From an uncultured Candidatus Saccharibacteria bacterium (GTDB lineage Bacteria > Patescibacteriota > Doudnabacteria > UBA920), in the NCBI GenBank assembly GCA_964504715.1, contig CAZDEP010000004.1, positions 8,542-72,541 on the forward strand: a DNA stretch of 64,000 nucleotides. Reading direction: 5' to 3'. Positions 11,906 to 33,867 of this stretch are shown here, piece after piece. Both the position numbers and the translations under genes were made by a program. The notes beneath the pieces were generated by a model that ran no database searches, had not been told where the DNA came from, and saw only the letters and a program-made list of their open reading frames with translations. Every line of letters begins with the position of its first letter. The stretch's first letter is position 1.

Positions 11906-11932
11906 ACTTAGCCCCTTACTAAGGGGCTAAGT
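11906..11932 (+). terminator. perfect 12-bp stem hairpin after the capsid gene
   Basis: acttagcccctt-act-aaggggctaagt. Confidence 0.4.
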
Positions 11933-11965
11933 AGAAAGCTTAGAATTAATTTAGAAAGGATATAT

Positions 11966-12184: not shown

Positions 12185-12197
12185 AACGTAAAAATCT

Positions 12198-12530: not shown

Positions 12531-12532
12531 AT

Positions 12533-13678: not shown

Positions 13679-13680
13679 TT

Positions 13681-14091: not shown

Positions 14092-14263
14092 CATTAGACT
14101 CATGAAGAATAAAAATACCAACGACAATTTACCCGACTTGGAATTTAACTTCCCTCTTGAAGGGGTGGTTATTAAAGCCAAAACTTTGGAAGAAGCCCAA
14201 AGCGAATTAGCCAGGCGCAAAAGTCAAAGGTCTGAACCAATTAACGACGAAGGAGAATAATTT

Positions 14264-15256: not shown

Positions 15257-15260
15257 AAAT

Positions 15261-15641
15261 ATGGAACGAGAAAATATTACAATTGAAACGCCGGTCGATA
15301 AGCACGTTGTGGTGCTAAAAAGTTTTATTACCGGCCGCGAACAAAGAATTTTGACCAACATTTTCGTATCGGGAATGAAAGACGTCAAAGTTTCGGCAAT
15401 AAACCAAGACTTAAATGTTCCGGAGGTTAACACCGCCTTAATCGATAAGGCCGAGGATGAAGCGTGGCGTTTGGTAATCGTATCCATTGACGGACACAAA
15501 GACGGCGATGTCATTGATGGCAAGCCTTATTCCCTAATCGATGCGGTATTGGATATGAAATTAAAGGATTACGAGGCCGTATCCAATAAGGTAAAGGAAG
15601 TCACGCAAGACAAACATTTTGAATCTCAAAAAAAAATTTAA
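15261..15641 (+). CDS. tail assembly chaperone G; start revised from ORF-track 15120 to the ATG at 15261
   Basis: Acidic protein ending 6 codons after an A AAA AAA slippery heptamer (15629-15635). Confidence 0.55.
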   Translation: MERENITIETPVDKHVVVLKSFITGREQRILTNIFVSGMKDVKVSAINQDLNVPEVNTALIDKAEDEAWRLVIVSIDGHKDGDVIDGKPYSLIDAVLDMKLKDYEAVSNKVKEVTQDKHFESQKKI

Positions 15642-15844
15642 TCGTTGAATATCGCACCTTCTTAAGAAATGGCGGAGGTAAGTTGCCGGAACAGTTAATC
15701 ATGGCAATGGTTTGCGAAAAAATGGGCTGGACATTGGAGCAATACCTGTGCCAGCCCGTTTGGTTTATAAAGACGTTGCTGCTTAAAATGAATTTAGACG
15801 CAGAGCATTCGGAAGAATTAAATAAACAATATGGCTCAAAGTAA
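15261..15844 (+). CDS. tail assembly chaperone GT fusion made by -1 programmed frameshift at 15629-15635
   Basis: -1 frame stays open for 69 codons (NLIVEYRTFLRNGGGK...NKQYGSK) and ends at 15844, overlapping the tape measure start. Confidence 0.5.
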
Positions 15845-17534: not shown

Positions 17535-19042
17535 TGATAACCGTTGAAATAAAAAAATTGGGAGAGGTCGTATTTACCGACCGCACTACATCGGTAATAT
17601 GGGACAGCTTGAAGATCAGGCAGGCTTTGACCAAAGAGGTGGACTCCTGCAATTTCAACATGGAAAAATACGGGAGTAAAACATTTAAACCGGACGAAGA
17701 AGACGAGATCGTAATAAAGCAAGATGGAATAAAAATCTTTGCCGGTTTTCTTGTCAGGGTCAGGGAAACTTTGACTCCCAACTTAGTGCTTTCATACGAA
17801 TGTGAAGCCAAAGATTATACCCATCTGCTAAATCGCAAATTGGTGAATAAAACTTACAGCAACCAAACCGAACTGCAAATCATTACCGATATTAAGAATA
17901 CTTTCTCCGCAGCCGGTATCACCGTTGCTAATGTTGACGGAGCCAATGTCATTGAGAACATTACTTTTAATAATGTGGATCCGTCGGCGGCTTTGCAAAA
18001 ACTGGCGGAAATTTTCAACAAAGATTGGTATATCGATTACGACAAGGATATCCATTACTTTTCCAAAGAAGCTAACGTCGCGCCGTTTAGTTTGAGCGAT
18101 GCCAACGGAAATTACATATTGGAAAGTTTGGAAATTACCACAGATACGACGCAGATTAAAAACAGCGTATTTGTGGAAGGAGGGCAGGAATTGAGCGGCA
18201 CGGTCTTTACCGAAAAATTCGTGGCCGATGGCACGCAGCATACCTTTTCCGTCAGCTATCAATATGCCAACCTTATATTGAAACTCAACGGCGTGACGAA
18301 AACCGTCGGCATCGACGGCACCGATGATTTTACCGGCAAGGACGCGCTATATAATTTTGAGAATTTTTCTTTAAGATTTAATCCTTTATCTCCCCCGGCC
18401 AATGGCACGGTAATTGAGTTTGGCGGCAATTTCTATTTTCCCATTAAGACTCTTGTCAGGGAAAGCACGTCAATTACCAAGTATGGCGAAAAGCAATTCC
18501 AAATTATTGACAGCAATATTAAAAATCGCGACGTAGCCAAGAAAAGGGCGCAGGCGGAAATCTATGCCTACGCGGCAAATCTTAACGAAGGAGGTTTTGA
18601 AACTTATACGTCGGGTCTTCGCGCAGGTCAACGTCTTTTAATTCAGTCGGACATCAGGTCTTTGAGTGATTATTACTTAATCAATAATTTGGAAGCCTCA
18701 ATGTTTAATCCGAGCAAAATTATTTGGAAAGCGACATTGGTGAGCGTGAAAACTTTTGACGTCATGGACTTGTTGGCCAAGATTGTCGACAAAAGTAACT
18801 TGCAGACCGGCACGGATGAAATAGTTAAGACCGCGGAGATTGTATTGCGAAGCGTGCAGGTGAGCAGGAATATCCAAATTCAAACCCCGCAGTCAAAAGC
18901 AAGGATAGTCCAACTGACCCGGCTTTTTTTAAGCTATATTGATAACCCGCCCGTCTGGGTGGCCGGACCCTATAATCCCACTTCCCTAAGCGACCGCAAA
19001 AGACCGGCTTTTGCCGATCGGGGTTGTCTTTTAGGCAGTTAA
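17534..19042 (+). CDS. distal tail / tail component protein
   Basis: Position after the tape measure. Confidence 0.45.
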   Translation: MITVEIKKLGEVVFTDRTTSVIWDSLKIRQALTKEVDSCNFNMEKYGSKTFKPDEEDEIVIKQDGIKIFAGFLVRVRETLTPNLVLSYECEAKDYTHLLNRKLVNKTYSNQTELQIITDIKNTFSAAGITVANVDGANVIENITFNNVDPSAALQKLAEIFNKDWYIDYDKDIHYFSKEANVAPFSLSDANGNYILESLEITTDTTQIKNSVFVEGGQELSGTVFTEKFVADGTQHTFSVSYQYANLILKLNGVTKTVGIDGTDDFTGKDALYNFENFSLRFNPLSPPANGTVIEFGGNFYFPIKTLVRESTSITKYGEKQFQIIDSNIKNRDVAKKRAQAEIYAYAANLNEGGFETYTSGLRAGQRLLIQSDIRSLSDYYLINNLEASMFNPSKIIWKATLVSVKTFDVMDLLAKIVDKSNLQTGTDEIVKTAEIVLRSVQVSRNIQIQTPQSKARIVQLTRLFLSYIDNPPVWVAGPYNPTSLSDRKRPAFADRGCLLGS

Positions 19043-19044
19043 TT

Positions 19045-19053
19045 TGCTATAAT
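19045..19053 (+). promoter_or_regulatory. extended -10 promoter (TGcTATAAT) with conserved leader and U-tract (19068-19140)
   Basis: Exact TGnTATAAT; leader shares aactttaa / tacgggctt / cgggagta / U-run with the 7482-7546 and 9761-9840 copies. Confidence 0.45.
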
Positions 19054-19142
19054 ATAGATAATAAATCAATAACTTTAAGGATTTACGGATCCTATTTCCA
19101 AAAGCATACGGGCTTTTCGGGAGTAGGGTCTTTTTTGTTTTT

Positions 19143-19706
19143 ATGGACATAAAAGCTGAAGAAAAATTCATTAAACGTATTGGCTGGATTACCAAGTATA
19201 ACTGGGAAAAGCTAAAACTCATTCCTAATTGGCGTGACTATTTTGACGTGAGTAAAATCTCCCCGCAAAAAAGGTTTGAAATATTTGGAGGCATTCCCGG
19301 ATTGATTGAAGGGCAGCAATTGTTTGAAAACCTAACTCCGACTGTTGGCTTTCAGCAACTTTGCAAAGCCATGAGTGGCAATATTTCCACGATTGCGGAG
19401 ATCGGAGTTAATTATCACGCCATGGGCACGGGCACGAATTCTCCGGCTGCCGGTGATATTCAATTACAAACCGAGAGCACCAGAAAACTTTTAGCTTCAA
19501 AGACTTATTCAAACAACAAAGCTTTTTATACCGCTTTCTATGCAGCTACCGAGGCTGTGGGAACTTTCACTGAAATCGGTTTGTTCATAAACGGATCGGC
19601 TACTGTCAACTCCGGCGTGATATGGGACAGGTCGCTGCTTTCGATTATTAAATCCAACACACAGACCTTAACAATTGATTACGAGGATACGTTCATTAAC
19701 GGATAA
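19143..19706 (+). CDS. tail protein (hypothetical)
   Basis: ORF between tail genes. Confidence 0.3.
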   Translation: MDIKAEEKFIKRIGWITKYNWEKLKLIPNWRDYFDVSKISPQKRFEIFGGIPGLIEGQQLFENLTPTVGFQQLCKAMSGNISTIAEIGVNYHAMGTGTNSPAAGDIQLQTESTRKLLASKTYSNNKAFYTAFYAATEAVGTFTEIGLFINGSATVNSGVIWDRSLLSIIKSNTQTLTIDYEDTFING

Positions 19707-19709
19707 TCT

Positions 19710-21095
19710 ATGCCTAATTGGAATGCCGGTGACGAAGTCACCTCTGCCAAACTCAATAAATCTCTGGCGGGACTGGCAGCTTCAGCCCAGGCTACGCCAG
19801 ATATGACCTTGAAAGTTAACGAGGGCGTGGTCAGGTTTGGCAAAAGCGAAGTTCGTTTTAGTGGCGGTGACTCTCCGAGCTTCACCGCACCCGGATCCAA
19901 TAACCGGATTGACCTGTTAGTAATCAATTCCAGCGGCATTCTAGAAATTATTCAAGGCACGGCCGCCACTTCTCCCTCGGTTCCTGCTTACCCTTCCACT
20001 AAGTTTGTCATTACCGAAGTTTATCTGAGAGCTGGAGCAACCAGTATAAAAAATATCGATGATTCTACTAATGGGTATATCTATAAGGATGCCAGGGCGT
20101 ATGCGGTATTGCTTGATAAATTCGGCGGCGATGGCAGCGACGGAGCGTTAAGTATTTCTTCCGGCACGACCACGATTAATTTAGGTGATGCGGCAATTGT
20201 CGTTAAAAACTATTCTTCCATAGCCATTACCGGCAGCGGCAAGTTGGCTTTCAGTAATCCTCATGCCGGTGGAACTTTAGTGGTCTTAAGGTCGCAAGGA
20301 AACGTCGACATTACTTCTTCCACCGTTCCGTGCATTGACTTAAAGGGCATAGGAGCCACTGATAGCACCACTCCAAATTTCTTTGTAGGAACGGTTACGG
20401 TTTACGGCGGTGTTCCCACGGGCGGGGTAATTTGGGACAGAGCCAGTTCGTATACGCCCTATACCAGCGGCGGAGTTTCATTGGTTACTAGAACTATTTG
20501 TCTTGCTCCGGGTGCCGCTGGATCAACTGGCGGAGGCGGATCAGCCGGTGCGCCAGGCGGCACGACTGGGCGTGGCGGTGGCGGGATGCTCATCGAGTGC
20601 GGTGGCGCATGGAATTTTACCGTTACCAATGGAATCGATATTTCCGGACAAGATGGCGGCAATGGAGTAAGCGGTAACGGATATAATGGCGGACTGAATT
20701 CTACGGGACCCGGTGGCGGAGGGGGCGGTAATTGCGGCATGTTCTTAGCACTTTATAATTATCTAACGACGAATACCGGCACTATAAAAGCTGCGGGAGG
20801 TAAAGGCGGAGATGGCGGCGGAGCCGGTGGATCTTGGAATTTTGGAGCAGCCGGAGCCTCTGGAGGCGGAGGCGCAGGATCAATGGAAGGCGCGGGAGGT
20901 AATGGAGCGACGGGAAGCGGAACGACCACTCCCCCCAACGGCAGTGTCGGTTCCGGAAACGGATCCGGCAGCGGAGGGGGCGCAGGGGCTGGATTTAACT
21001 GGGGCACTAGCAATTTTACCGGACCCAGTTCCGGCGGCGCAGCCACTTCAACTTCCACCAAACATTCTTTAATCACTAAAAACAATTATTTTTAA
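19710..21095 (+). CDS. tail fiber protein, Gly-rich (collagen- or silk-like repeats)
   Basis: N-terminus MPNWNAGDEVTSAKLN is shared with the second fiber; long GGxGG runs. Confidence 0.55.
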   Translation: MPNWNAGDEVTSAKLNKSLAGLAASAQATPDMTLKVNEGVVRFGKSEVRFSGGDSPSFTAPGSNNRIDLLVINSSGILEIIQGTAATSPSVPAYPSTKFVITEVYLRAGATSIKNIDDSTNGYIYKDARAYAVLLDKFGGDGSDGALSISSGTTTINLGDAAIVVKNYSSIAITGSGKLAFSNPHAGGTLVVLRSQGNVDITSSTVPCIDLKGIGATDSTTPNFFVGTVTVYGGVPTGGVIWDRASSYTPYTSGGVSLVTRTICLAPGAAGSTGGGGSAGAPGGTTGRGGGGMLIECGGAWNFTVTNGIDISGQDGGNGVSGNGYNGGLNSTGPGGGGGGNCGMFLALYNYLTTNTGTIKAAGGKGGDGGGAGGSWNFGAAGASGGGGAGSMEGAGGNGATGSGTTTPPNGSVGSGNGSGSGGGAGAGFNWGTSNFTGPSSGGAATSTSTKHSLITKNNYF

Positions 21096-22746: not shown

Positions 22747-22977
22747 ATGGAGTATTTATTGGGTGTCGTAGTGTCTATTATAGTAGAGGTGGCCAAAAAG
22801 TATTTTGACGCCAACACCTTGGGCACTTATTTCCTCTTGTTAGTAGTGTCCTTGGTTGGAGCCACCGGCTATTACTTCTTAGCTCATTCTGCTTACTGGA
22901 CTACGATTGCGGAAATATTGACCATTGCCGCCGCTTTCCACAACTTAGTCATCAGGCGTTTGAATCCTGAAAAATAA
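22747..22977 (+). CDS. holin-like small membrane protein
   Basis: 76 aa, two predicted TM helices, charged C-terminus. Confidence 0.45.
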   Translation: MEYLLGVVVSIIVEVAKKYFDANTLGTYFLLLVVSLVGATGYYFLAHSAYWTTIAEILTIAAAFHNLVIRRLNPEK

Positions 22978-22980
22978 ACT

Positions 22981-25086
22981 ATGCATAATTGGGTTGCCGG
23001 TGAAGAGGTCACCGCTACAAAACTTAATGAGCTGAATCCGGAAGCTGACACCCGTATTAGCAAAACCGAACACAATATCCTTGAACTCTATTTGGAGAAT
23101 TATTTTGCCAGCAAGAATACTCCTTTTCAAGGCTTATTTTTCGATGGCTTTTCCGATGCCAGCAAAGCCCAAACCGGCACTGGCAATATCGCCAGCGTGG
23201 CGGTAAGTGGCCAGCCCAACGTGCCTTTGGCCAATCAGGCGGAAATCGATTTGTTTCCGCCCGGGTCTTTGGTGGAGATTTATGACGGAAGCAACAGGGA
23301 GAGCAACGTGGCGGCAGGATCCACGACCGGACCCGTAACCGATTTTACCAGCGCGGATTGCAAGGCTGCCGACGGCTTTGCCTATAGTGAACAGGATGGG
23401 CAGGGTTTTTGGTTTGACGACGGCGTGGTTTCCGGCAAGCGCAGGGTCAGGAGAACCGGTAATGGCGGCTGGGGATCCGGCGGCGATGGAGGGTTTTTCA
23501 CCAAAACCATGGCTGTGGTCAACGGCGCAACTTACCGCATTCAGGTCACCTGCAATTGGAACTTTCCTGACAGCCAGGCTGCCAAAATTCAGTTAGTAGT
23601 AGATGGAGTGGTCAAGCAGCAAAAAGATCCTTTGGGCGACGCCGCCAACGGCTATGCCACTACCGGCGCCATTACCTTTGACGTTAATGCGGTTGCCTCC
23701 GGTTCAAGCATGAGCATAGCTTTAAAAGCCTCACAAAACAGTAATTTCGGGACGGGGAATGAAGATAGGGCGGATTGGTCTAACTTTTCCGTGACGCACA
23801 CGGGGTATTTGCTCATCATGCAGAATAACTTGGCGAGCAGCTACGCCCAAGGCGGATTTGTAAAATACACCACGGCCACCATAGACACCTCTAATAAACG
23901 TTTAGCCATGACATCCGGAGTCGGCGATCTAAAAAGAGTTATTTACCAAAGTGTGGACAGCGTATTTACTCAATTGATGGCCAGCGCATACTTATGGATA
24001 ATGAGAAAGGTCACGACCAAGTTTCATCCGAACAGTTCCGTGGCTCAAAGCGCCAACCAAGTTACCGTTACGGGACCTTCGGGGACTTTTACCATTGGCG
24101 ACATCATAGATATTTATATTGCGAATAAAACGATCAGGGAAAGAAAGGCGGTCAGTAATGTTTCGGAAGCGGGAGGAGGAGGCAATGTTGGTTTTGATAC
24201 TACTACCGGTATAAATACCACTAGCACGGTCTTTACTTATGCCCATAATGTGGCAAATCAATCTAATCGTTACTTAGTGGTTTTCGTAGACGCAAATAGC
24301 TCCGCTCCTTCGGGTGCAACTTATAATGGAATAGCTTTAACTAAAGTAGCCGAACAAAACGTAGGCGCGACTGGAAGAAACACTAGTCTTTGGGTTCTCG
24401 CTAACCCTGCTATTGGGAACAATAACGTGGTGGTAACTTTTGGTAGTTCCCATGACGCCAATATTAGAAGCTATAGCCTTTATAATGCTTCAGGCGTGGG
24501 AACACCATATACTACTGATTATTCCGTAAATAATAATTACAACCCCACTCTTACAGGAATGAGTGGCGGGATGATACTGGATTTTCTCCGCATGTGGGGT
24601 GACCCGGGTGGTAGCGTGGTTGCTAATAACGGCCAGACCAGAGATTTCGGTGGAGCGGGCGGAACCGACTTAAAAACTTATCACAATACGGTTCCCGGAT
24701 CCATTGTCAGCTCTTATAGTTGGCCGACCAGCAGCGGACACTACGCAGCCAGTATTTGCGTTCTGCCGACGATTCCCGATATAACGTTAACGTTTTCTCC
24801 AGCGATCCAAAAGTCGGGAGGCTTTGTCACTACTGACTGGGTAGAAAGGGTTGATGTATTGCCAAAGATTAGCATTACGGGCAATAGTGAGGCTAGAAAT
24901 TTTGTAGCACCTGCTTTCCAAAACTCCATGGACGTATTGGTAGACACGGAAATTTACACCGAAGACGAATATAATTATACTCCGGCAACGCCGAAAGAAA
25001 CGGTTAAAATATATTTGGAAATAACCAGAGGTGATACCACACTTAATCCTTACGCTAAGCGCTTGGGAGTATCTTTGAATACTTGA
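22981..25086 (+). CDS. tail fiber / host-specificity protein
   Basis: N-terminus MHNWVAGEEVTATKLN is paralogous to the 19710 fiber; 701 aa, beta-rich. Confidence 0.55.
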   Translation: MHNWVAGEEVTATKLNELNPEADTRISKTEHNILELYLENYFASKNTPFQGLFFDGFSDASKAQTGTGNIASVAVSGQPNVPLANQAEIDLFPPGSLVEIYDGSNRESNVAAGSTTGPVTDFTSADCKAADGFAYSEQDGQGFWFDDGVVSGKRRVRRTGNGGWGSGGDGGFFTKTMAVVNGATYRIQVTCNWNFPDSQAAKIQLVVDGVVKQQKDPLGDAANGYATTGAITFDVNAVASGSSMSIALKASQNSNFGTGNEDRADWSNFSVTHTGYLLIMQNNLASSYAQGGFVKYTTATIDTSNKRLAMTSGVGDLKRVIYQSVDSVFTQLMASAYLWIMRKVTTKFHPNSSVAQSANQVTVTGPSGTFTIGDIIDIYIANKTIRERKAVSNVSEAGGGGNVGFDTTTGINTTSTVFTYAHNVANQSNRYLVVFVDANSSAPSGATYNGIALTKVAEQNVGATGRNTSLWVLANPAIGNNNVVVTFGSSHDANIRSYSLYNASGVGTPYTTDYSVNNNYNPTLTGMSGGMILDFLRMWGDPGGSVVANNGQTRDFGGAGGTDLKTYHNTVPGSIVSSYSWPTSSGHYAASICVLPTIPDITLTFSPAIQKSGGFVTTDWVERVDVLPKISITGNSEARNFVAPAFQNSMDVLVDTEIYTEDEYNYTPATPKETVKIYLEITRGDTTLNPYAKRLGVSLNT

Positions 25087-25111
25087 GGGATTTAGCTTTT
25101 GTGCGAAAAAT

Positions 25112-25120
25112 TGCTATAAT
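25112..25120 (+). promoter_or_regulatory. extended -10 promoter (TGcTATAAT) upstream of the AlbA_2/HATPase gene
   Basis: Exact TGnTATAAT 32 nt before the ATG. Confidence 0.4.
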
Positions 25121-25151
25121 TACACTAACTTTATAAAAAATTATAGCTTTT

Positions 25152-26615
25152 ATGGATATACAAAAATTCTTAGAGGAAGTTTTGGCTATACCCAACGAGT
25201 CAAGGACTTTTGAGTTTAAGCGCCTTGGCAGCAGAAACGAAGGATTGGATAAAACTCTGCAAGCTATTGTCGCCATGGCCAATACAGATGGCGGCACTAT
25301 TGTGCTTGGCATTGATGATCCGCAAAAATCAAAGCTAAAAGGTTTTGATCGGATTTTTGGCATTGAGGAAAATCCAGAATTGTATGACGAACTTGGTCAA
25401 AATGTAAAAAAGATTTCTCCTCCCATTGCCTCAATTTGGCCCCCGGAGTTAATCCAAGTTCCAGGAAAGAACGTCAGGATCGGGTGGCTATCAGTGCCCA
25501 AAGTTACGGATGGGTTCAGGTCTATCGACAACCATGTTTACGTTAGGCAAGAAAGAGGTAATAAACGATTATCTCCTCAAGAGATTGTTCACTTTGCTTA
25601 TGTCAAAGGTTTTGAGCGAGCTGATGCTGAAGCAGTCGAAGTTAGTATTGATTTACTGAAAACCAGCTATTACGAAGCTTGGCGGAAGAAACGCGGTATT
25701 GAGGAAGATTCCATCAGCATAATTTTAGAAAAAACTGGATTGGCAAAAAGAAACGACAAAGGTGTTATTTTACCGACTCGAGCCGCAGTATTACTCTTTG
25801 CCGACTATCCGAATGACTTAATGCACACAAAATGCACCGTTCGCGTCTTTCAATACGCCGGTAACCTGGAAACCATAAAGGAAACTTTAAACCTTGTTGG
25901 CACCCCCAAGACAATTGACGGACCTATTGTTAAGCTAATCAAAGACGCTCACGAATATGTGCTTACTCTTTTAAGAACCGGCATGAAAGTGCCGTCTGGG
26001 TTTGTGACCCAATATCAAATTCCGGAAAGAGCAGTTAAAGAAGCGATCACAAATGCCGTCATCCACCGCGATTACCATACAAAAAAAGATATTGAAATTA
26101 GAATTTTTGAGGATCGTGTTGAGATTGAAAGCCCAGGACTTTTGCCGTTTAACATTACACCGTCGAACATTGGTATTGTAAGGGCTCATGGTTATCGCAA
26201 CGATCTTATAGTCAAACATTTACGGGAATTTCCTGATCCTCCCAACCTTGACCAAAATGAGGGTATTAGAGCAATGCGCCAGACCATGACCGAAGCCAAA
26301 TTGTATCCGCCAATTTTCCTGACGTATCCATACATGCAAGACTCGCTCAAGGTTGTGCTCTTTAATGAAAAAGCACCATCAGAATGGGACAAGGTTTCGC
26401 ATCATCTTAATGAGCATAAATACATCACCAACAAAGAAGCCCGTTCGATCATTGGTATTCAAAGCGAAGTTAAGATGTCAAAATTGTTCAATAAGTGGGT
26501 GAAAAAAAATTTGTTGATCAAAATAGTGCCAAGGACGGGGGCAAAACGCAACATAAGCTACCGTCTGCCAACGGCCGACGAAAAGGGTTTATTTACCCCT
26601 GACAAAGGTAAATAA
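25152..26615 (+). CDS. Schlafen-like AlbA_2 DNA-binding domain + HATPase_c_4 domain protein (RecG-C-terminal-like 'ATP-binding' family)
   Basis: N-terminal FEFKRLGS...LQAIVAMANTDGGTIVLGIDD (AlbA_2); C-terminal ITNAVIHRDY...IESPGLLP (HATPase_c_4). Confidence 0.6.
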   Translation: MDIQKFLEEVLAIPNESRTFEFKRLGSRNEGLDKTLQAIVAMANTDGGTIVLGIDDPQKSKLKGFDRIFGIEENPELYDELGQNVKKISPPIASIWPPELIQVPGKNVRIGWLSVPKVTDGFRSIDNHVYVRQERGNKRLSPQEIVHFAYVKGFERADAEAVEVSIDLLKTSYYEAWRKKRGIEEDSISIILEKTGLAKRNDKGVILPTRAAVLLFADYPNDLMHTKCTVRVFQYAGNLETIKETLNLVGTPKTIDGPIVKLIKDAHEYVLTLLRTGMKVPSGFVTQYQIPERAVKEAITNAVIHRDYHTKKDIEIRIFEDRVEIESPGLLPFNITPSNIGIVRAHGYRNDLIVKHLREFPDPPNLDQNEGIRAMRQTMTEAKLYPPIFLTYPYMQDSLKVVLFNEKAPSEWDKVSHHLNEHKYITNKEARSIIGIQSEVKMSKLFNKWVKKNLLIKIVPRTGAKRNISYRLPTADEKGLFTPDKGK

Positions 26616-26688
26616 AAATAATAGGTTGATTTTAGGGCAGTTATCGGGAGTTTATTTACCCTAGGGGGTAGGCTATCTGTTTTTATTA

Positions 26689-26880
26689 TTGTTACCGAAT
26701 ATGACGTATATCCCTTTAGCAATTTTGGTTTATTTATTGACTGGTATTGGAATGGTTTTTTGGGATTTCCGTAGCGGCAATACCTTGCATGATCCGCCGC
26801 GATTTTTGCATGACCGAAGTGTCAGCACGGCCATAGTTTTTGTCCTGCTGTGGCCGTATAAGCTGCTAAAAAAAGTATAA
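26689..26880 (+). CDS. small membrane protein (2 TM)
   Basis: ORF with two hydrophobic helices. Confidence 0.25.
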   Translation: MLPNMTYIPLAILVYLLTGIGMVFWDFRSGNTLHDPPRFLHDRSVSTAIVFVLLWPYKLLKKV

Positions 26881-26962
26881 AAGTAAAGCCTAAACTCGCT
26901 TAACGAGCGTATAGCACAACGGGCTAAAAAGTGTTAAAATAAAGCCAGATTTAACACTGATT

Positions 26963-29671
26963 ATGGCCCTTTCTTGGAATGAGATAAAATCCCGCGCTGT
27001 GGTATTTTCCAAAGAGTGGGAAAATGAAACCCGCGAAGAAGCCGAAGCCAAAACTTTTTGGGATGGCTTTTTCAACGTCTTTGGCATGACTCGCAAACGT
27101 CTTGCTGCTTTTGAACATTATGTTAAACTGCGAGGCGGAGACCAGGGCTTTATAGATCTTTTCTGGCCAGGCACGTTATTGGTAGAGCATAAATCCAAAG
27201 GCAAAGATTTAGCCAAGGCGTATACGCAAGCCATTGATTATTTCCCTGGCCTGTTGGAGAAAGACTTGCCAAAATACATTTTAACCTCTGACTTTTCGCG
27301 TTTCCGGCTCCATGATATGGAAACCGGAAAGGAAACCGATTTTGACTTAAAAGATTTGAGTAAACATGTGAATTTGTTTGCTTTTATTGCCGGTTATGAA
27401 AAGCAACACATTCGCGAGGAAGATCCGGCCAACAGACAGGCAGCCGAACGCATGGCAGGTCTCCATGACAGCTTATTCGAAGCTGGATACAGCGGACATC
27501 AACTCGAAGTCTTTTTAGTGCGTATCCTGTTCTGCTTGTTTGCAGACGATACCGGCATTTTTCCCATCAAGAATCAATTTTACGACTATATTGAATGGAA
27601 GCCTAAAGAAGATGGATCAGACTTTGGTCTGTATTTACAAGGCTTGTTTGATGTTTTAAACACCCCTGTAGAAAAGCGGCAAGCAAACTTAGACGAAGAT
27701 TTAAAATCTTTTCCTTATGTAAACGGCGGACTGTTCGCCGAAACCTTACCAACCGTTTCTTTTAATAGCGCTATCCGCAAGGCTTTCTTAAAATGCTGTG
27801 ATTTTGACTGGTCACAAATTTCCCCGGCTATATTCGGTTCCATGTTCCAAGGGGTAATGGACAAAAAAGAACGCCGGGCTTTGGGAGCGCACTATACTTC
27901 GGAAACCAACATCTTAAAACTGATTAAGCCATTATTTTTAGACGAACTGTGGGCGGAATTTGAAACGGTAAAACATAACCATCAAAAGCTGCAAATTTTC
28001 CAAAGGAAAATTGCCAGCTTAAAATTTTTAGACCCAGCCTGTGGTTGTGGCAACTTTTTGGTAATTGCTTACCGTGAACTGCGCCTTTTGGAGCTGGAAA
28101 TTTTAAAGTTAATGTATGGACCTGGCAAGTCAATTTTAAAGTGGAATATCCAGACCATTACCCAAGTCAGTCCCGAACAGTTCTATGGCATAGAAATTGG
28201 AGAGTTTGCAGGGCGTATTGCCGAAACCGCAATGTGGCTCGTCGACCACCAAATGAACCAAAAAGCCAGTGAAGCTTTGGGACAATACTTTGTTCGTTTG
28301 CCTTTGGACAAAGCCGCGCATATAAAGTTTGGTAATGCTTTAACTACCGACTGGAAGGAAATTATACCGCCTGATGAGTTGAGCTATATTTTGGGTAATC
28401 CTCCTTTTGTCGGGTCAAAGCTTATGACTGAACAGCAGCGGGCGGAAATTGTGGATGTATTTAACAATGCGAAGGGTGTGGGTGTGCTGGACTATGTTTC
28501 GGGTTGGTATATAAAAGCGGCCAAATACATACAGGGCACGCAAATTAAATGCGCTTTTGTCTCTACAAATTCCATTACCCAAGGTGAGCAGGTCGGGATT
28601 CTGTGGAATGAACTGCTTAATAAATATGGTATTAAAATTCATTTTGCCCATAAGACTTTTAAGTGGAGCAATGAAGCAGCTGGTAAAGCAGCGGTTTATT
28701 GTGTGATTGTTGGTTTTGCGAATTTTGATGTCAATAAAAAATCTCTTTATGAATATGAAAATATAAAAGGAGTGCCACACGAAGTTACTGTAAAAAATAT
28801 CAATCCTTACTTAGTGGCTGCTGATGACATTATTATTGATAAAAGAAGTAAGCCAATTTCAAAAGTTCCTGGTATGGTCTTTGGGAGCATGCCTAACGAT
28901 GATGGTAATTTATTACTGGACAATCAGCAAAAAGTTGAACTGCTTTCTGTCGAACCTAACGCTGCAAAATTTATAAAGCCTTTCATCAGTGCGAAGGAAT
29001 TTTTAAATCGCCAGACGCGGTGGTGTTTATGGTTGGTGGATGCTAAACCTGAAGAGATAAAGTCCATGCCTGCAATTTTGCAAAGAGTCCAAAATATAAG
29101 AGATTATCGGCAAAAAAGTAAAAGAAAAACGACTGTTGAATTAGCAAATAAACCGGCTCTGTTTGGTGAAAATCATCAACCTGATTCTGAATATATTTTA
29201 GTGCCCCGTGTATCCTCTGAAAATCGCAAATATATACCTATGGGGTTCTTTACTAAGGAAAGCATAGTTGGCGACACTTGCATGAGCATTCCTGGAGCCA
29301 CTTTATATCACTTTGGGGTGCTGGAAAGCGAAATGCATATGGCTTGGGTGCGGTATGTATGTGGACGGCTTAAAAGTGATTACCGTTATTCCAAGGATAT
29401 TGTCTATAACAACTTTCCGTGGCCAAAAGATCCAAGTCCTGAGAAAATGCAAGCTATTGAGCAGGCAGCACAACAGGTTATAGATATCCGGCAAAAATAT
29501 CCCAATAGCTCCTTGGCTGATTTATACGACCCGCTCACAATGCCAGCTGATTTGGTTAAGGCACACGAAGAATTAAACCGCGCAGTTGACGCCACCTACA
29601 GCCGCCGCACCTTCAAATCCGAAGCCGAACGGATGGAGTTTTTATTTGAATTGTATAAAAACCATGAATGA
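26963..29671 (+). CDS. MmeI-family Type IIL (IIG) restriction-modification enzyme (endonuclease + N6-adenine MTase + TRD in one polypeptide)
   Basis: N-terminus MALSWNEIKSRAVVFSKEWEN...GFIDLFWPGTLLVEHKSKGKDL is strikingly MmeI-like, with the D...E.K nuclease residues; MTase motif I FLDPACGCGNFLV and motif IV GNPPFVGSK. Confidence 0.85.
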   Translation: MALSWNEIKSRAVVFSKEWENETREEAEAKTFWDGFFNVFGMTRKRLAAFEHYVKLRGGDQGFIDLFWPGTLLVEHKSKGKDLAKAYTQAIDYFPGLLEKDLPKYILTSDFSRFRLHDMETGKETDFDLKDLSKHVNLFAFIAGYEKQHIREEDPANRQAAERMAGLHDSLFEAGYSGHQLEVFLVRILFCLFADDTGIFPIKNQFYDYIEWKPKEDGSDFGLYLQGLFDVLNTPVEKRQANLDEDLKSFPYVNGGLFAETLPTVSFNSAIRKAFLKCCDFDWSQISPAIFGSMFQGVMDKKERRALGAHYTSETNILKLIKPLFLDELWAEFETVKHNHQKLQIFQRKIASLKFLDPACGCGNFLVIAYRELRLLELEILKLMYGPGKSILKWNIQTITQVSPEQFYGIEIGEFAGRIAETAMWLVDHQMNQKASEALGQYFVRLPLDKAAHIKFGNALTTDWKEIIPPDELSYILGNPPFVGSKLMTEQQRAEIVDVFNNAKGVGVLDYVSGWYIKAAKYIQGTQIKCAFVSTNSITQGEQVGILWNELLNKYGIKIHFAHKTFKWSNEAAGKAAVYCVIVGFANFDVNKKSLYEYENIKGVPHEVTVKNINPYLVAADDIIIDKRSKPISKVPGMVFGSMPNDDGNLLLDNQQKVELLSVEPNAAKFIKPFISAKEFLNRQTRWCLWLVDAKPEEIKSMPAILQRVQNIRDYRQKSKRKTTVELANKPALFGENHQPDSEYILVPRVSSENRKYIPMGFFTKESIVGDTCMSIPGATLYHFGVLESEMHMAWVRYVCGRLKSDYRYSKDIVYNNFPWPKDPSPEKMQAIEQAAQQVIDIRQKYPNSSLADLYDPLTMPADLVKAHEELNRAVDATYSRRTFKSEAERMEFLFELYKNHE

Positions 29672-30239
29672 TCCAATTCTTAAAGAAAAAGAGTCTGTAG
29701 AAGTTGGCCCTGCCACAGAAACTCCCTATAAAAAGGGGTTGTATGTATTGGGTTATAGCGATGAGCAAATAGAAGAATTGGGGGCTTTTTTTAATGAAGT
29801 ATTCGAAAAGATGCGAAATGCTCACTCGATGCAAGTTACAAGAAATGGACTAAGTTTTTTTCAAGGTGCAATATTCGCATTAGGTTCAAAAGAGTTGGGA
29901 AACGTAGAATGGAAAGAACACTGTGCTTCATCAATTCGAGAAGTGTTTCATGAATGGTGGGGTAATGGAAAAGAGTTTAATAGTGATTTTAGGGACTTTT
30001 TTCCAAAAAGCCCATCTGCTGATACCACTGAAACTTATAAAAATTTAAAGCTGGCATATCAATACTTTTCTGGCATTGCCCACCACAATGCATCTGGTAT
30101 AATAGGTTCTTTATCCGCTTTAAAAAAAGATCAAAGTCTAAAATTAGAGGACTGTTATACCGACGATATATTTCTGGGGACCTTAAAAACTCATTTTGCT
30201 GATTTGAATAAGTTAATCGAATATTCCCGTCTTACGTAA
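29664..30239 (+). CDS. hypothetical protein translationally coupled (ATGAATGA overlap) to the MmeI-like gene; start revised to the ATG at 29664
   Basis: 191 aa; no recognisable motif; stop TAA is directly followed by the ATG of the next gene. Confidence 0.4.
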   Translation: MNDPILKEKESVEVGPATETPYKKGLYVLGYSDEQIEELGAFFNEVFEKMRNAHSMQVTRNGLSFFQGAIFALGSKELGNVEWKEHCASSIREVFHEWWGNGKEFNSDFRDFFPKSPSADTTETYKNLKLAYQYFSGIAHHNASGIIGSLSALKKDQSLKLEDCYTDDIFLGTLKTHFADLNKLIEYSRLT

Positions 30240-33218
30240 ATGAACCAAATAGAATTACATAATAAAATTGACACTTTAATACAAAGCGGGCATCAGGCCA
30301 CTACTGTTGCCACGGTTTTGGAAATTATAAAAACCAATTCTGACGCACGATTGTATTTTTATACAAAAGCCGACGAGCTATGGCTGGATTGGCTGTGGCA
30401 AAATAACTTTTTGGATCCTGTTAAAGCTAAAGTAGTAGAAACTGATCGTTATTCTTACAGCACACCGGAGCTTGGCTACCTCGTCCGCATGGTAGAAAAA
30501 AAACCAAAAGAAGTTACAGATATTATTTTGCAGGTGTCTATTTCAAAAGAACATTTTAACCCGGAAGTAGTAGACAGATTTTTATGGATTGCAAGATCCC
30601 TTCCGGCTGACCAGACTGCAAGGATAGCCAATAAAATTCGTGACGAACAGTGGCCAAAGCTCATGTGGCGATTCAATCGCTGGGGATTTGAATATGAGCA
30701 AATGTTTAAAAAACTTTCCGAAGCCAAAGACTACGATAGCCTACTTGCTATTGCCGAAGCCGTATTGGCTGTAAAGACAAAAGAAGACGAAACCGAAGGA
30801 GTCAAGCGCATGAGTTTAGACTCACCTTTTTATTTAGACCACTTGGCCGAAACTAAGGTGTTTCAGTATTTCGTTTCTGTTGACGATTTACATGTAGAAC
30901 AAGCATTGGCTTTGGCAACCGAAGTAATGGGTAATGCTTTTAACAGAGGAGAAAAAGCGAATAGTGACGAAATTTTCCCAATTAGGGACACTTTCTACTT
31001 ATCACATGTTGATTTTTTTACCCTTGAACTTGAGGAGGGTAGACACATTTCTTATAGGGAAGATGTGCGAGATTTAGCGGCCGTCGCCAAGCTACTTATT
31101 ACCAAGGCTGTGGAAATAAAAAAAGGAGATGGAAAAGCAATAAGCAATTTATATGAAAAATACATCAAAACTCTACCAGACAGCCAGACTATGTGGAGAT
31201 TTCGGATGTATGTTTTGAGTTTGGCACCGGAAATGTTTAAGGATGAATTAAAGTCGGCTTTCTTTAGAATTTTCAGAGAAGATGACAAGCCATGGGCATT
31301 GATTTATGCGGAATACGAGAGGGCTGTTTATGCTGGCTTTGCAACATTAGAAGAATCAGAAAAACGTGATTATGTGTCACGGGTCTTAAGCTATTTTGGC
31401 GACAGAATGGGTGAAGATGCAGACTTGTGGAAGCATCACGGCTGGCAGATTCTGTCCGGCATTGTTGATCAGTTAACAGACGAAGAGAAAAAACAAGCAG
31501 AACAAAAATTTGGAAAAACGTTAGATGATAAATACGAACCCGAGCCGGCCGTCAAGTATGATGGATTTGCAAGAACTATAGTTTCGCAGCCACCTGTAAC
31601 AGCTGAAGAATTAGCAGGAATGCCAATACTAGATATCGTTGCAAAGTTAAAGGATGATTGGTCACCACAGGCCCTTGCAGAAAAATATAAAGATGAGCCT
31701 TTTCACCGGCCGATTGACGCTGACGGAGTCGGTCAGCTTATTAAGAGTGACATGGCTAACCGGCTGCAGGAGTATCTAAACGACGCCCCTCTTTTCTTTG
31801 ATAGGGAGTCGTTGGATTCGGATTATACCTATGCTTTTTTGCGAGGCATTGAGCAGATATTACGAGATAAAAAAAATACAAGCCAACTGGACTGGAAAGG
31901 TCTATTAGAAATGTATAAGCAGATAGTCCAGTCTGGCAAAGAAACTCAATTTGAGCCTAAAGCCAGGAAACGCGAATTCTCTACCTCCTGGCTGGCCAGC
32001 TGGGCGGCAGTCCATAGTGTTATGGGCGACGTTTTAGAGGAACTCCTAAAAGGAGAGGAAAGACCAATTATAGATTTTTCTCTATACAGAAATGATATTT
32101 TGGATATTATTGATTATTTGTTTTTATATCCAGATCCCAAGCGGGAAGATGAAACACCGGATCGCGGTGATCTGTTTACCGTGGCTATCAACTCTGTAAG
32201 GGGTAAGGCCTTTGAAGCCTTGGTTGCATTTATTTATCAAGACGGAAAACAATATCCTAAGGAAGCTAAGGTAAAAATCTCTGCGGATGTTAAAAAAGTA
32301 TACGAGAGATTGCTCACTCAAGAAAATGCCTTATCAGTCATGTTCTTATTTGGACATTATTTACCGTCATTTATGTTTCGGGACGAAGATTGGATTTTAA
32401 GTTTAATACCCAAGGTTTTTCCCGAAGAGACAGAAAAGAAAGATTTATATCTTGCCGCATGGGAGGGTTATCTGGCTAATAATCTTTACAAGGAAATATT
32501 TGAAAAATTTGACTTTCTCTACCAACGAGCTATTAATTTTGATTCAGCACAATACACCGATAGAAAATACTTCAAGGAAATTGACGAAGGCTTGGCCATA
32601 CACCTAGCCCTTGCTTATATACATTTCCCGGGCTTTGGTTTAAATAACCAGTTGTTCGTCAACTTTTGGAAGAAAGAAAACCCGAAACGGCACGAGGCGT
32701 TTATTGCCTTTGTTGGCAGGCATGCCTTATCCAGAGAAAGTGGTCAAGACAAAGAAGTTGAGCTTAAAAGATTAGAAAATTTGTGGGATTGGGTTTTAGA
32801 AAACGTCACAGATAACGAAGCATTAAAAGGATTTGGGCATTGGATAAATCCGAATAAAAGAGTATTTGAAAATAAATGGTTAGTTGAGCATATCCGCAAA
32901 ACTTTAGAAAAAACCAAAGGTGATATCGAGTGGGAATACGGGTTAATGCATGCCTTACCAGGGCTGGCTAAAACAGAACCGCAAGATTCTTTCAAAATTT
33001 TGAAGCTCTATATGCTGGATGCAGAAAAATTTGGTATTCAAAACCACGCTTCTATTTATGTTGATAGCGAAATCTTGGAAACGCTAAAAATTCTCCATGC
33101 CAATCCAGATACTAAAAAACAAATTTATGACCTTATTAATGAATTGTTATTAAAAGGCAGTCAAAGATTCTGGAAATTAAAAGAGGTATTGGGTTTAGAA
33201 ACTAATTCAAGTTTGTAA
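30240..33218 (+). CDS. large (992 aa) predicted all-alpha/helical-repeat protein of unknown function
   Basis: No nucleotide-binding or catalytic motif recognised; 0-nt gap from the upstream gene and 4-nt gap to the SRAP gene. Confidence 0.4.
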   Translation: MNQIELHNKIDTLIQSGHQATTVATVLEIIKTNSDARLYFYTKADELWLDWLWQNNFLDPVKAKVVETDRYSYSTPELGYLVRMVEKKPKEVTDIILQVSISKEHFNPEVVDRFLWIARSLPADQTARIANKIRDEQWPKLMWRFNRWGFEYEQMFKKLSEAKDYDSLLAIAEAVLAVKTKEDETEGVKRMSLDSPFYLDHLAETKVFQYFVSVDDLHVEQALALATEVMGNAFNRGEKANSDEIFPIRDTFYLSHVDFFTLELEEGRHISYREDVRDLAAVAKLLITKAVEIKKGDGKAISNLYEKYIKTLPDSQTMWRFRMYVLSLAPEMFKDELKSAFFRIFREDDKPWALIYAEYERAVYAGFATLEESEKRDYVSRVLSYFGDRMGEDADLWKHHGWQILSGIVDQLTDEEKKQAEQKFGKTLDDKYEPEPAVKYDGFARTIVSQPPVTAEELAGMPILDIVAKLKDDWSPQALAEKYKDEPFHRPIDADGVGQLIKSDMANRLQEYLNDAPLFFDRESLDSDYTYAFLRGIEQILRDKKNTSQLDWKGLLEMYKQIVQSGKETQFEPKARKREFSTSWLASWAAVHSVMGDVLEELLKGEERPIIDFSLYRNDILDIIDYLFLYPDPKREDETPDRGDLFTVAINSVRGKAFEALVAFIYQDGKQYPKEAKVKISADVKKVYERLLTQENALSVMFLFGHYLPSFMFRDEDWILSLIPKVFPEETEKKDLYLAAWEGYLANNLYKEIFEKFDFLYQRAINFDSAQYTDRKYFKEIDEGLAIHLALAYIHFPGFGLNNQLFVNFWKKENPKRHEAFIAFVGRHALSRESGQDKEVELKRLENLWDWVLENVTDNEALKGFGHWINPNKRVFENKWLVEHIRKTLEKTKGDIEWEYGLMHALPGLAKTEPQDSFKILKLYMLDAEKFGIQNHASIYVDSEILETLKILHANPDTKKQIYDLINELLLKGSQRFWKLKEVLGLETNSSL

Positions 33219-33222
33219 TTCT

Positions 33223-33867
33223 ATGTGCGGAGCGTATTCTCTTTCAACTGATTTTGGTAAACTCGCAAAGCGGTTTAAGGCTAAACCGCCGAAGGTTTCG
33301 TATCCTAAAAGATACAACATCCGGCCGAGCCAGCCGCTTGTGGCTATTTTAAATACGAATCCAGAGCAGATGGTTTTAGCCCAATGGGGCATTATTCCCT
33401 TTTGGGATAAGACCGGTAAAAAACAAATAATCAATGCCCGCAAGGACAGTTTAGAAAAACCAACTTTTAAGCAGTCGTTCCATGAACGCCGCTGTTTAAT
33501 TTTGACCGATGGTTTTTATGAATGGAAAGCAGTGCCAGGGGAGAAAACCAAAATACCATATCGCTTTACCTTAAAATCAGAAGAGCCATTCGCTTTTGCC
33601 GGTATTTGGCAGGAAGATGCCGAGGATCCGCATGTTGTTATTATTACCACGGACCCTAACAAAATAGTTGAGTCAATCCATAATCGCATGCCCGCAATTC
33701 TTAAACCAGAATTTGAGCAGGATTGGTTAAATCCGGATTTGCAAGATGAGCAAATTCTGGAATTGCTACAGCCGTATCCGGATAAAGAAATGAAAGACTA
33801 TGCCATATCTACTTTAGTGAATTTACCAAGGAATGATAGTTTAGAAATTATTAAACCCCAGCTTTAA
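33223..33867 (+). CDS. SOS-response-associated peptidase (SRAP / YedK-HMCES family, abasic-site DNA-protein crosslinking)
   Basis: N-terminal MCGAY (catalytic Cys2), conserved E and H positions. Confidence 0.8.
   Translation: MCGAYSLSTDFGKLAKRFKAKPPKVSYPKRYNIRPSQPLVAILNTNPEQMVLAQWGIIPFWDKTGKKQIINARKDSLEKPTFKQSFHERRCLILTDGFYEWKAVPGEKTKIPYRFTLKSEEPFAFAGIWQEDAEDPHVVIITTDPNKIVESIHNRMPAILKPEFEQDWLNPDLQDEQILELLQPYPDKEMKDYAISTLVNLPRNDSLEIIKPQL

What the first reader, a model, noticed from the sequence alone, without database searches (positions are those of the whole stretch)
26963..29671. MmeI-family Type IIL restriction-modification enzyme next to a prophage
The first ~110 residues are near-collinear with MmeI, including the D-x9-E-x-K nuclease triad context (GFIDLFWPGTLLVEHK). 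The gamma-class MTase motifs (DPACGCGNF, NPPF) follow. Enzymes of this family methylate one strand and cut 18-20 nt away. Specificity is reprogrammable by a few TRD residues, so this is a potentially new specificity from an uncultivated lineage.
Basis: partly seen in the sequence, partly recalled or inferred. Interest (0 to 1): 0.55.

Follow-up and report, generated by a model that had tools for sequence, protein, structure and literature searches.

The report
Prophage-borne MmeI-family restriction-modification enzyme
This gene encodes an intact single-protein enzyme of the well-known MmeI family that both cuts and methylates DNA; it is carried as cargo inside a prophage of an uncultivated Patescibacteria (CPR) bacterium, and it is an ordinary family member whose predicted target site (CAGRAG) is already known.

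Summary
Window 26963-29671 (+) is one 902-aa ORF that aligns collinearly with MmeI (PDB 5HR4) over residues 1-900 at 54% identity. It has all five Pfam MmeI domains, the nuclease triad D65/E75/K77, motif I (DPACGCGNF) and NPPF. It shows strong purifying selection against its orthologue in a related MAG (dN/dS 0.03). It is a functional-looking Type IIL enzyme, not PglX-like and not degraded.

First, the specificity is probably not new. The eleven published DNA-contact positions read F-M-R-G-E-R-D-T-R-K-D, which by the published MmeI code gives C-A-G-(R/G)-A-G. That is the known SdeAI site, CAGRAG. Eleven other protein clusters among the 120 database homologues aligned carry the same signature. 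Second, the gene lies inside the prophage, not beside it. It sits between the tail genes and the integrase/attR (a tRNA 3' fragment at 44073-44098), and it travels with the tail genes in a second strain.

The host is Patescibacteria (Doudnabacteria-like). The family has more than 8000 clusters. This is a new member of a known kind, of low interest.

A more unusual side item lies downstream. orf197 and orf992 form a split Dsr1-like protein whose SIR2 domain is replaced by an unknown helical domain.

The parts
26963..29671 (+). MmeI-family Type IIL restriction-modification gene (902 aa)
   Evidence: ORF. Five Pfam MmeI domains: N 11-173, hel 179-258, Mtase 334-596, TRD 620-822, C 826-900. Collinear with PDB 5HR4. 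dN/dS 0.031 against the L082 orthologue.
27146..27193 (+). PD-ExK nuclease motif GFIDLFWPGTLLVEHK (D65, E75, K77 = MmeI D70, E80, K82)
   Evidence: The triad is DEK in 120 of 121 aligned sequences.
28031..28057 (+). MTase motif I, DPACGCGNF (AdoMet binding)
28397..28408 (+). MTase motif IV, NPPF (catalytic)
28820..29428 (+). Target recognition domain (aa 620-822). Contact residues: F640, M643, R721, G735, E736, R749, D771, T772, K804, D806, R808.
   Evidence: Pfam MmeI_TRD 1.5e-79. Residues mapped onto MmeI numbering. TRD is 43% identical to MmeI, against about 58% for the N-terminal nuclease, helical spacer and MTase domains.
26716..33332 (+). Block shared at 93.8% nt identity with a related MAG contig (L082): MmeI + orf197 + orf992
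   Evidence: blastn; tblastn
29646..30239 (+). orf197: helical protein homologous to the N-terminal extension of fused Dsr1-like proteins. It overlaps the MmeI 3' end by 26 nt. It is a neighbour, not part of the enzyme.
   Evidence: Profile hit E=3.9e-14. AF2 model pLDDT 83, all-alpha. No PDB fold match.
30240..33218 (+). orf992: Dsr1-body-like protein lacking SIR2. It starts on the base after the orf197 stop.
   Evidence: PADLOC Dsr1 2.2e-29. Family of 1921 representatives. In the fused homologue P0376, residues 187-1157 align to Dsr1 model positions 292-1213 of 1227.
5643..21095 (+). Prophage packaging, head and tail module (terminase, portal, protease, major head, tail tube/minor tail, tape measure, virion protein)
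   Evidence: PHROGs
22953..26715 (+). Variable cargo insert absent from L082: orf701 (22981-25086) and a Schlafen/AlbA_2 + HATPase_c_4 protein (25152-26615)
   Evidence: blastn gap; Pfam and PADLOC
42567..43736 (+). Tyrosine integrase at the right end of the integrated element
   Evidence: Pfam Phage_integrase 1.4e-39
44073..44098 (+). tRNA 3' fragment (T-loop, T-stem, acceptor, CCA) followed by a hairpin terminator: the putative attR and right boundary of the element
   Evidence: Sequence read directly. Unique in the window at up to 3 mismatches. ARAGORN calls no full tRNA here.

Best explanation
The ORF encodes a complete and probably active Type IIL (MmeI-family) restriction-modification enzyme. 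One polypeptide carries an N-terminal PD-ExK nuclease, a helical spacer, a gamma-class N6-adenine methyltransferase and one C-terminal target-recognition domain that serves both activities. By analogy with characterised family members (literature, not tested here), it should bind an asymmetric 6-bp site and methylate the adenine at position 5 on the top strand only. It should cut unmodified DNA about 20/18 or 21/19 nt downstream when two unmodified sites are bound. The residues at the published base-contact positions predict the site 5'-CAG(R/G)AG-3', the known SdeAI specificity. The gene is cargo of an integrated siphovirus-like prophage in a Patescibacteria (Doudnabacteria-like) genome, lying between the tail genes and the integrase/attR. 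It most likely protects the lysogen against other phages and foreign DNA. It works on its own. The two downstream genes are a separate Dsr1-like module.
For: Shown: full-length collinear alignment to MmeI 5HR4 (1076 bits, 54% identity). All five Pfam MmeI domains are near full length. PADLOC REase_MTase_IIG scores 1240 bits over 2-900 of a 912-position model. The triad D65/E75/K77, DPACGCGNF and NPPF are present. The protein carries the consensus residue at 301 of 307 columns that are at least 95% conserved in 120 other aligned sequences, and the six exceptions lie outside the nuclease triad and the two MTase motifs. dN/dS against the orthologue in MAG contig CAYGES010000001.1 is 0.031 (178 synonymous and 27 non-synonymous differences), with the nuclease domain at 0.026 and the MTase at 0.011. 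No BREX or DISARM partner genes occur among the neighbours scanned. Specificity: Y642F, K645M, A723R, Y738E, E751R, N773D, A774T, R810R, E806K, R808D, read with rules from PMC4833311 and PMC2731914. SdeAI = CAGRAG(21/19) and is 908 aa. Prophage membership: PHROG hits to terminase, portal, head, tail and tape measure; integrase; tRNA-fragment attR. The tail genes and the MmeI block are both shared with L082 at 92-94% nt identity, while the sequences between and beyond them differ. Independence from the neighbours: none of 80 other MmeI loci has orf197/orf992, and most orf992 homologues have no MTase neighbour.
Against: No biochemical or methylome data exist, so activity, cut distance and specificity are all inferred. 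Position 1 of the site rests on correlation only, and engineering at that position failed in MmeI. Thr at the A774 position leaves R versus G at position 4 open. I could not obtain the SdeAI sequence to confirm that it carries the same contact residues. CAGRAG occurs at chance frequency in the window (38 observed, 38.5 expected), which says nothing about specificity. The left end of the prophage is outside the window, so a composite element cannot be fully excluded. The gene overlaps orf197 and is co-conserved with orf197/orf992, so co-transcription and some functional link remain possible.
Confidence: 0.88

Rival explanations
1. It is an active MmeI-family enzyme with a recognition sequence not yet described.
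For: The TRD is the most diverged domain, at 43% identity to MmeI. The 121 aligned sequences carry 40 distinct contact signatures, so specificity turns over quickly. The rules for position 1 are correlative only, and residues outside the contact set influence specificity. Thr772 could give CAGGAG rather than CAGRAG.
Against: Every one of the five variable positions reads out to a base by published rules. Four of them (positions 2, 3, 4 and 6) are validated by mutagenesis, and the result equals a known natural specificity, SdeAI. There are no TRD indels relative to MmeI that would suggest a 7-bp site.
Confidence: 0.3
2. It is a PglX/DrmMI/Mad2-like methyltransferase that serves as the specificity subunit of a multi-gene system (BREX, DISARM, MADS) and does not cut DNA itself.
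For: There are weak partial hits to PglX, DrmMI and mad2 models and to the NCBIfam BREX PglX models.
Against: Those hits score 16-157 bits and cover only part of the protein, against 1240 bits for the Type IIG model. The NCBIfam PglX scores are 22-26 bits against cut-offs of 500-900. The N-terminal nuclease domain is present with an intact triad and is under purifying selection. No PglZ, BrxC, BrxL, DrmA, DrmB or DrmC was detected among the neighbours scanned.
Confidence: 0.03
3. MmeI, orf197 and orf992 form one three-gene defence system, in which the Dsr1-like pair depends on or is controlled by the MmeI-type methyltransferase.
For: The genes overlap or abut (26-nt overlap, then 0-nt gap). 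The block is conserved as a unit in two strains. In L087 a fused orf992 homologue starts on the stop codon of a different large single-chain N6-MTase of Type ISP-like architecture.
Against: None of 80 genome loci with MmeI homologues has orf197 or orf992. Closer MmeI homologues have unrelated neighbours. Five of seven distinct orf992-family contexts have no MTase neighbour. Fused single-gene forms of orf197+orf992 exist on their own. Defence genes cluster in islands in any case.
Confidence: 0.07
4. It is a decaying or inactive remnant, for example methylase-only after nuclease loss, as seen for some family members disrupted in their hosts.
For: Three of the characterised family genes were disrupted in their native hosts (PMC2731913). 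The related strain's prophage right arm is truncated inside the SRAP gene.
Against: There is no frameshift or stop. The length is full and the protein matches 98% of the highly conserved columns. dN/dS is 0.03 overall and 0.026 in the nuclease domain.
Confidence: 0.03

Closest known systems
MmeI (Methylophilus methylotrophus; PDB 5HR4), Type IIL, TCCRAC(20/18)
   Same: Same five-domain architecture and order. 54% identity over 900 residues, an identical N-terminus, and the same nuclease triad and MTase motifs.
   Different: Nine of the eleven base-contact positions compared differ, as do the three MTase-domain minor-groove contacts K487/S488/K489 (S/K/L here), so a different site is expected. 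The protein has a 5-residue deletion before the nuclease motif. It is prophage-borne in a CPR bacterium.
SdeAI (Sulfurimonas denitrificans, YP_392994), CAGRAG(21/19), 908 aa
   Same: The recognition sequence predicted here, CAG(R/G)AG, equals the SdeAI site. Both are at the short end of the family's length range, 902 versus 908 aa.
   Different: The SdeAI sequence could not be retrieved, so identity of the contact residues is untested. The organisms are unrelated (Campylobacterota versus Patescibacteria).
NmeAIII (GCCGAG) and the engineered MmeI/NmeAIII variants
   Same: It uses the same K-x-D pair for G at position 6 and the same R/D pair (E751R + N773D type) for G at position 3 that were validated by mutagenesis.
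   Different: The residues at positions 1 and 2 differ.
PglX (BREX) and DrmMI (DISARM) methyltransferases
   Same: They share a related gamma-class MTase and TRD (weak hits).
   Different: Those proteins lack the N-terminal PD-ExK nuclease and work with PglZ/BrxC/BrxL or DrmA/B/C. None of these partners is present here.
MmeI homologue of Leptospira phage LE1 (BX571876, annotated 'hypothetical protein')
   Same: It is a full-length MmeI-family gene carried by a temperate phage genome (48% identity, 100% coverage).
   Different: The phage and host are unrelated. Only 9 of 50,697 phage records hold any MmeI-like sequence, so phage carriage is uncommon but not new.
Dsr1 (defence-associated sirtuin 1), for the neighbouring orf197/orf992 pair only
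   Same: The large non-SIR2 body aligns with the PADLOC Dsr1 model.
   Different: There is no SIR2 domain. In its place is a ~180-aa all-helical domain with invariant W, S-x-R and H residues and no Pfam or PDB match, encoded here as a separate gene.

Membership tests
MmeI family (Type IIL / IIG single-chain RM) | N-terminal PD-ExK endonuclease with D70-x9-E80-x-K82 | tested here: met
   D65/E75/K77 align to D70/E80/K82. Pfam MmeI_N 2.8e-44. Domain dN/dS 0.026.
MmeI family (Type IIL / IIG single-chain RM) | Similarity along the entire length of MmeI, with the domain order nuclease, helical spacer, MTase, TRD, C-terminal helices | tested here: met
   One HMMER domain, query 1-899 to MmeI 1-900. 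Pfam domains are in the expected order.
MmeI family (Type IIL / IIG single-chain RM) | Gamma-class N6-adenine MTase: motif I (DPACGxGxF) upstream of motif IV (NPPF), with the TRD C-terminal | tested here: met
   aa 357-365 and 479-482. MmeI_Mtase 2.3e-93.
MmeI family (Type IIL / IIG single-chain RM) | No companion methyltransferase gene | tested here: met
   No MTase was detected in any of the nine other ORFs of 150 aa or more scanned between 21.6 and 38.9 kb. The two phage MTases lie 22 kb upstream.
MmeI family (Type IIL / IIG single-chain RM) | Methylation of one strand only (top-strand A5) and cleavage about 20/18 nt downstream, needing two sites | not testable with these tools
   These properties are known for characterised members (PMC2731913). 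Testing them needs enzyme assays or a methylome.
SdeAI isospecificity group (CAGRAG) | TRD contact residues that specify C-A-G-R-A-G | tested here: inconclusive
   R721/E736 give C. M643 gives A. R749/D771 give G. R808/T772 give a purine. K804/D806 give G.
BREX PglX | Reaches the NCBIfam PglX cut-off and is accompanied by PglZ, BrxC and BrxL | tested here: not met
   22-26 bits against cut-offs of 500-900. No BREX partners were found.
DISARM DrmMI | Full-length DrmMI match with DrmA, DrmB and DrmC neighbours | tested here: not met
   Partial hit of 125 bits on the C-terminal half only. No helicase, DUF1998 or PLD genes are nearby.
Dsr1 (neighbouring orf197/orf992 only) | N-terminal SIR2 NADase domain fused to the Dsr1 body | tested here: not met
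   The body matches Dsr1, but no SIR2 domain is present in orf197, in orf992 or in the fused homologues.

The most novel reading that the evidence does not exclude
The conserved, overlapping trio MmeI-orf197-orf992 is a single prophage-borne defence operon in which a Type IIL enzyme is functionally paired with a split Dsr1-like sensor. The SIR2 effector of that sensor has been replaced by a previously undescribed all-helical domain. The recurrence of a large single-chain N6-MTase directly upstream of a fused homologue (L087) would then reflect real coupling rather than defence-island clustering.
Probability: 0.08. Interest if true: 0.55.

Novelty: new member of a known kind. Interest (0 to 1): 0.22.

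Why it matters
For the enzyme itself, little. It adds one more intact MmeI-family member to a family of thousands, and its predicted site duplicates a specificity that is already characterised, so it is unlikely to extend the restriction-enzyme toolbox. Its setting has modest value. It shows a temperate phage of a Patescibacteria (CPR) bacterium carrying a complete single-gene RM system, together with a Dsr1-like module and a variable cargo slot, between its tail genes and attR. CPR bacteria mostly lack CRISPR and are thought to rely on RM-type defences, so prophage-delivered defence is relevant to how these small genomes acquire immunity. The neighbouring orf197/orf992 family is the more promising lead. 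It comprises about 1900 representatives, in split and fused forms, none with a SIR2 domain.

Full report
OBSERVATION. The window has one ATG-to-stop ORF at exactly 26963-29671 on the + strand, encoding 902 aa. GFIDLFWPGTLLVEHK is at aa 62-77, DPACGCGNF at aa 357-365, and NPPF at aa 479-482. The protein is collinear with MmeI over its whole length, not only the first ~110 residues.

WHAT IT IS. Pfam finds all five MmeI-specific domains in the canonical order and nearly full length: MmeI_N 2.8e-44, MmeI_hel 1.8e-25, MmeI_Mtase 2.3e-93, MmeI_TRD 1.5e-79 and MmeI_C 1.8e-31. The PADLOC Type IIG REase-MTase model scores 1240 bits over residues 2-900. A sequence search of the PDB returns one entry, MmeI (5HR4), at 1076 bits. 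It is a single alignment of query 1-899 to chain 1-900, with 53.6% identity and only four short gaps of 1-5 residues. The first eight residues (MALSWNEI) are identical, which fixes the start codon. The nuclease triad D70/E80/K82 of MmeI corresponds to D65/E75/K77. In an alignment with 120 other sequences (MmeI and 119 database homologues), the protein has the consensus residue at 301 of the 307 columns that are at least 95% conserved. The six exceptions lie outside the nuclease triad and the two MTase motifs.

An orthologue at about 94% nucleotide identity exists in a related MAG contig (CAYGES010000001.1, locus L082). Comparison with it gives 178 synonymous against 27 non-synonymous differences, so dN/dS is 0.031. 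By domain the values are 0.026 for the nuclease, 0.011 for the MTase and 0.066 for the TRD. The gene is therefore intact and under strong purifying selection in every domain.

RIVAL FAMILIES. Hits to PglX, DrmMI and mad2 models are partial and weak, at 16-157 bits. The NCBIfam BREX PglX models score 22-26 bits against cut-offs of 500-900. No PglZ, BrxC, BrxL or DISARM partner was detected among the neighbours. The protein is a Type IIL enzyme, not a non-cutting specificity subunit.

HOW IT MOST LIKELY WORKS. This section is inferred from the family and was not tested here. Characterised members use one TRD for both activities. They methylate only the top-strand adenine at position 5 of an asymmetric site, cut about 20/18 or 21/19 nt downstream, and need two unmodified sites for efficient cleavage (PMC2731913).

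The base-contact positions are known from the MmeI-DNA structure and from covariation and mutagenesis (PMC4833311; PMC2731914). I mapped them onto this protein as follows.
- Position 1: A723R and Y738E. Arg/Lys at 723 and Glu at 738 correlate with C:G, giving C.
- Position 2: K645M (with Y642F). K645M switches MmeI to A:T, giving A.
- Position 3: E751R and N773D. This is the validated pair for G.
- Position 4: R810 is retained and A774 becomes T, giving a purine. Whether this is R or G only is open, because Thr is of intermediate size.
- Position 5: the methylated A.
- Position 6: E806K and R808D. This is the validated pair for G.

The predicted site is 5'-CAG(R/G)AG-3'. CAGRAG(21/19) is the site of the characterised enzyme SdeAI, which at 908 aa is also the shortest listed member. 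None of the 23 amino-acid differences from the L082 orthologue falls on a contact position.

Across the 121 aligned sequences (this protein, its 119 best full-length database homologues and MmeI) there are 40 distinct 11-residue contact signatures. This protein's own signature, FMRGERDTRKD, occurs in 12 of them. This particular read-out, however, is neither unique nor predicted to be new.

I could not obtain the SdeAI sequence, so the equivalence is a prediction. I put about 0.55-0.6 on CAGRAG/CAGGAG and about 0.3 on something undescribed. CAGRAG is present at chance frequency in the window (38 against 38.5 expected), so the host and the prophage need the methylation for protection. This count carries no information about specificity.

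CONTEXT. Window 1 to about 22,950 is a siphovirus-like temperate phage. It encodes a DnaD-like loader, two DNA methyltransferases, a large terminase (5643-7001), a portal (7553-9724), a protease, a major head protein, neck and tail proteins and a tape measure (15831-17534). The right-hand part of the window is ordinary chromosome. From 44,367 on it carries a pilin-like gene, HlyD and MacB/FtsX transporter genes, TopA, DprA, Pth, Der, a LytR-family gene, tRNA-Val and a signal peptidase.

A tyrosine integrase lies at 42567-43736. At 44073-44098 there is a 26-nt tRNA 3' end, consisting of T-loop, T-stem, acceptor strand, discriminator base and CCA. It is followed by a hairpin terminator but has no 5' half. 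This is the classical signature of an attR left by integration into a tRNA gene. It is unique in the window at up to three mismatches, so no internal junction separates the phage genes from the MmeI region. The MmeI gene is therefore inside the integrated element, between the tail genes and the integrase.

The comparison with L082 gives independent support. Its tail genes match window 13378-21248 at 92% nucleotide identity, and its MmeI-orf197-orf992 block matches 26716-33332 at 93.8%. It lacks window 22953-26715 (orf701 and a Schlafen/AlbA_2-HATPase_c_4 protein). It diverges inside the SRAP gene at codon 37 and continues into unrelated efflux genes. The MmeI block travels with the phage while its surroundings change. 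The cargo region also has lower G+C (0.38-0.41) than the phage and chromosome parts (0.43-0.49).

The host is Patescibacteria. The Der GTPase is 63-73% identical to proteins named Candidatus Doudnabacteria or Patescibacteria group, and the best genome hit for the MmeI gene itself is a Doudnabacteria MAG at 69%.

Prophages of about 44 kb in Patescibacteria have already been reported (PMC12455944). MmeI-like genes occur in a few phage records: 9 of 50,697, with a full-length copy in Leptospira phage LE1, and 2 IMG/VR contigs. None of this is unprecedented.

THE NEIGHBOURS. orf197 (29646-30239) overlaps the MmeI 3' end by 26 nt, and orf992 (30240-33218) starts on the base after the orf197 stop. 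This raises the question of a three-gene system, which I tested in several ways.
- The C-terminal half of orf992 matches the PADLOC Dsr1 model.
- The orf992 family has 1921 representatives at E<=1e-3, in two architectures: about 980-1000 aa, and about 1110-1200 aa with an N-terminal extension.
- A profile built from 42 such extensions hits orf197 at E=3.9e-14, and nothing else in the window scores below E=0.027. orf197 plus orf992 is therefore the split form of the fused protein.
- In the fused homologue P0376, the Dsr1 model aligns from just after the SIR2 domain to the end. The SIR2 effector has been replaced by this domain of about 180 aa.
- The domain has invariant W89, S96, R98 and H146 and no Pfam hit.
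- Its AlphaFold model is confident (pLDDT 83, pTM 0.79) and all-helical, with no significant Foldseek match in the PDB.

None of 80 genome loci with MmeI homologues carries orf197 or orf992. Closer MmeI homologues have unrelated neighbours. Of seven distinct orf992-family contexts, only this one and L087 have an adjacent MTase, and the L087 gene is a different, Type ISP-like MTase. I conclude that the pair is an independent Dsr1-like module sitting next to an autonomous MmeI enzyme. I leave about 7-8% for real functional coupling.

VERDICT. The feature is real and the family assignment is correct. It is a new member of a very large known family, with more than 8000 clusters at E<1e-50. It has a probably already-known specificity and is carried as prophage cargo in a CPR bacterium. 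Interest is low (0.22). The adjacent split Dsr1-like pair with an uncharacterised effector domain is the more novel item and is recorded separately.

Noticed in passing
window 29646-33218 (+); also L082 12684-16256, L086, L088-L090, L096, L087, L091, L093: orf197 and orf992 together are the split form of a protein family of about 1170 aa (1921 representatives). The family's body aligns with Dsr1, but the SIR2 domain is replaced by an all-helical domain of about 180 aa (invariant W, S-x-R, H). That domain has no Pfam hit and no PDB fold match. This may be a Dsr1 variant with a new effector.
   Followed up: partly
window 22953-26715: A variable cargo slot in the prophage. orf701 (no family hit) and a 487-aa Schlafen/AlbA_2 + HATPase_c_4 protein (weak PADLOC hits to pAgo-associated models) are present here. 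The otherwise 92-94% identical element in L082 has about 270 bp in their place.
   Followed up: partly
window 42567-44135: A tyrosine integrase is followed by a 26-nt tRNA 3' fragment (44073-44098) and a hairpin terminator. This is the putative attR of an integrated element of 44 kb or more. The intact tRNA and attL must lie left of the window.
   Followed up: partly
window 33223-33867; L082 16261-16371: The SRAP (YedK-like) gene is intact in the window. In the related strain only its first 37 codons remain before unrelated sequence, and that strain has no integrase or att fragment. Its prophage right arm has therefore been deleted or rearranged.
   Followed up: partly
window 2795-3439 and 3914-5176: Two phage DNA methyltransferase genes lie in the replication and early region. 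The second carries an N-terminal ParB-like domain. They are likely phage anti-restriction methylases, separate from the MmeI enzyme.
   Followed up: no
window 44367-64000, with 1-22950 for the phage: The host chromosome is Patescibacteria: Der is 63-73% identical to Ca. Doudnabacteria proteins. The prophage is distant from known phages, with a portal at most about 30% identical to GenBank phages and no IMG/VR relative found.
   Followed up: partly
window 34371-39642: The element carries a run of secreted-looking cargo genes: an 855-aa protein with weak Ig-like/Big_13 hits, followed by ORFs of 319, 337 and 229 aa, of which the 319-aa and 229-aa ones have PsbP_2-like hits. Their function is unknown.
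   Followed up: no
window 40472-41768: Two overlapping nucleotidyltransferase ORFs lie just upstream of the integrase. One is Adenyl_transf/Polbeta-like and the other is like aminoglycoside-2''-adenylyltransferase. They could be a resistance-like or toxin-antitoxin-like cargo pair.
   Followed up: no
L087 1376-7962: A fused orf992-family gene (1169 aa) starts on the stop codon of a 1025-aa protein with N6_Mtase, Eco57I and Type_ISP_C domains and no recognised nuclease domain. This is the second case of this family lying directly downstream of a large single-chain MTase.
   Followed up: partly
window 26000-38000: The cargo region has lower G+C (0.38-0.41) than the phage core and chromosome (0.43-0.49), consistent with recent acquisition.
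   Followed up: no
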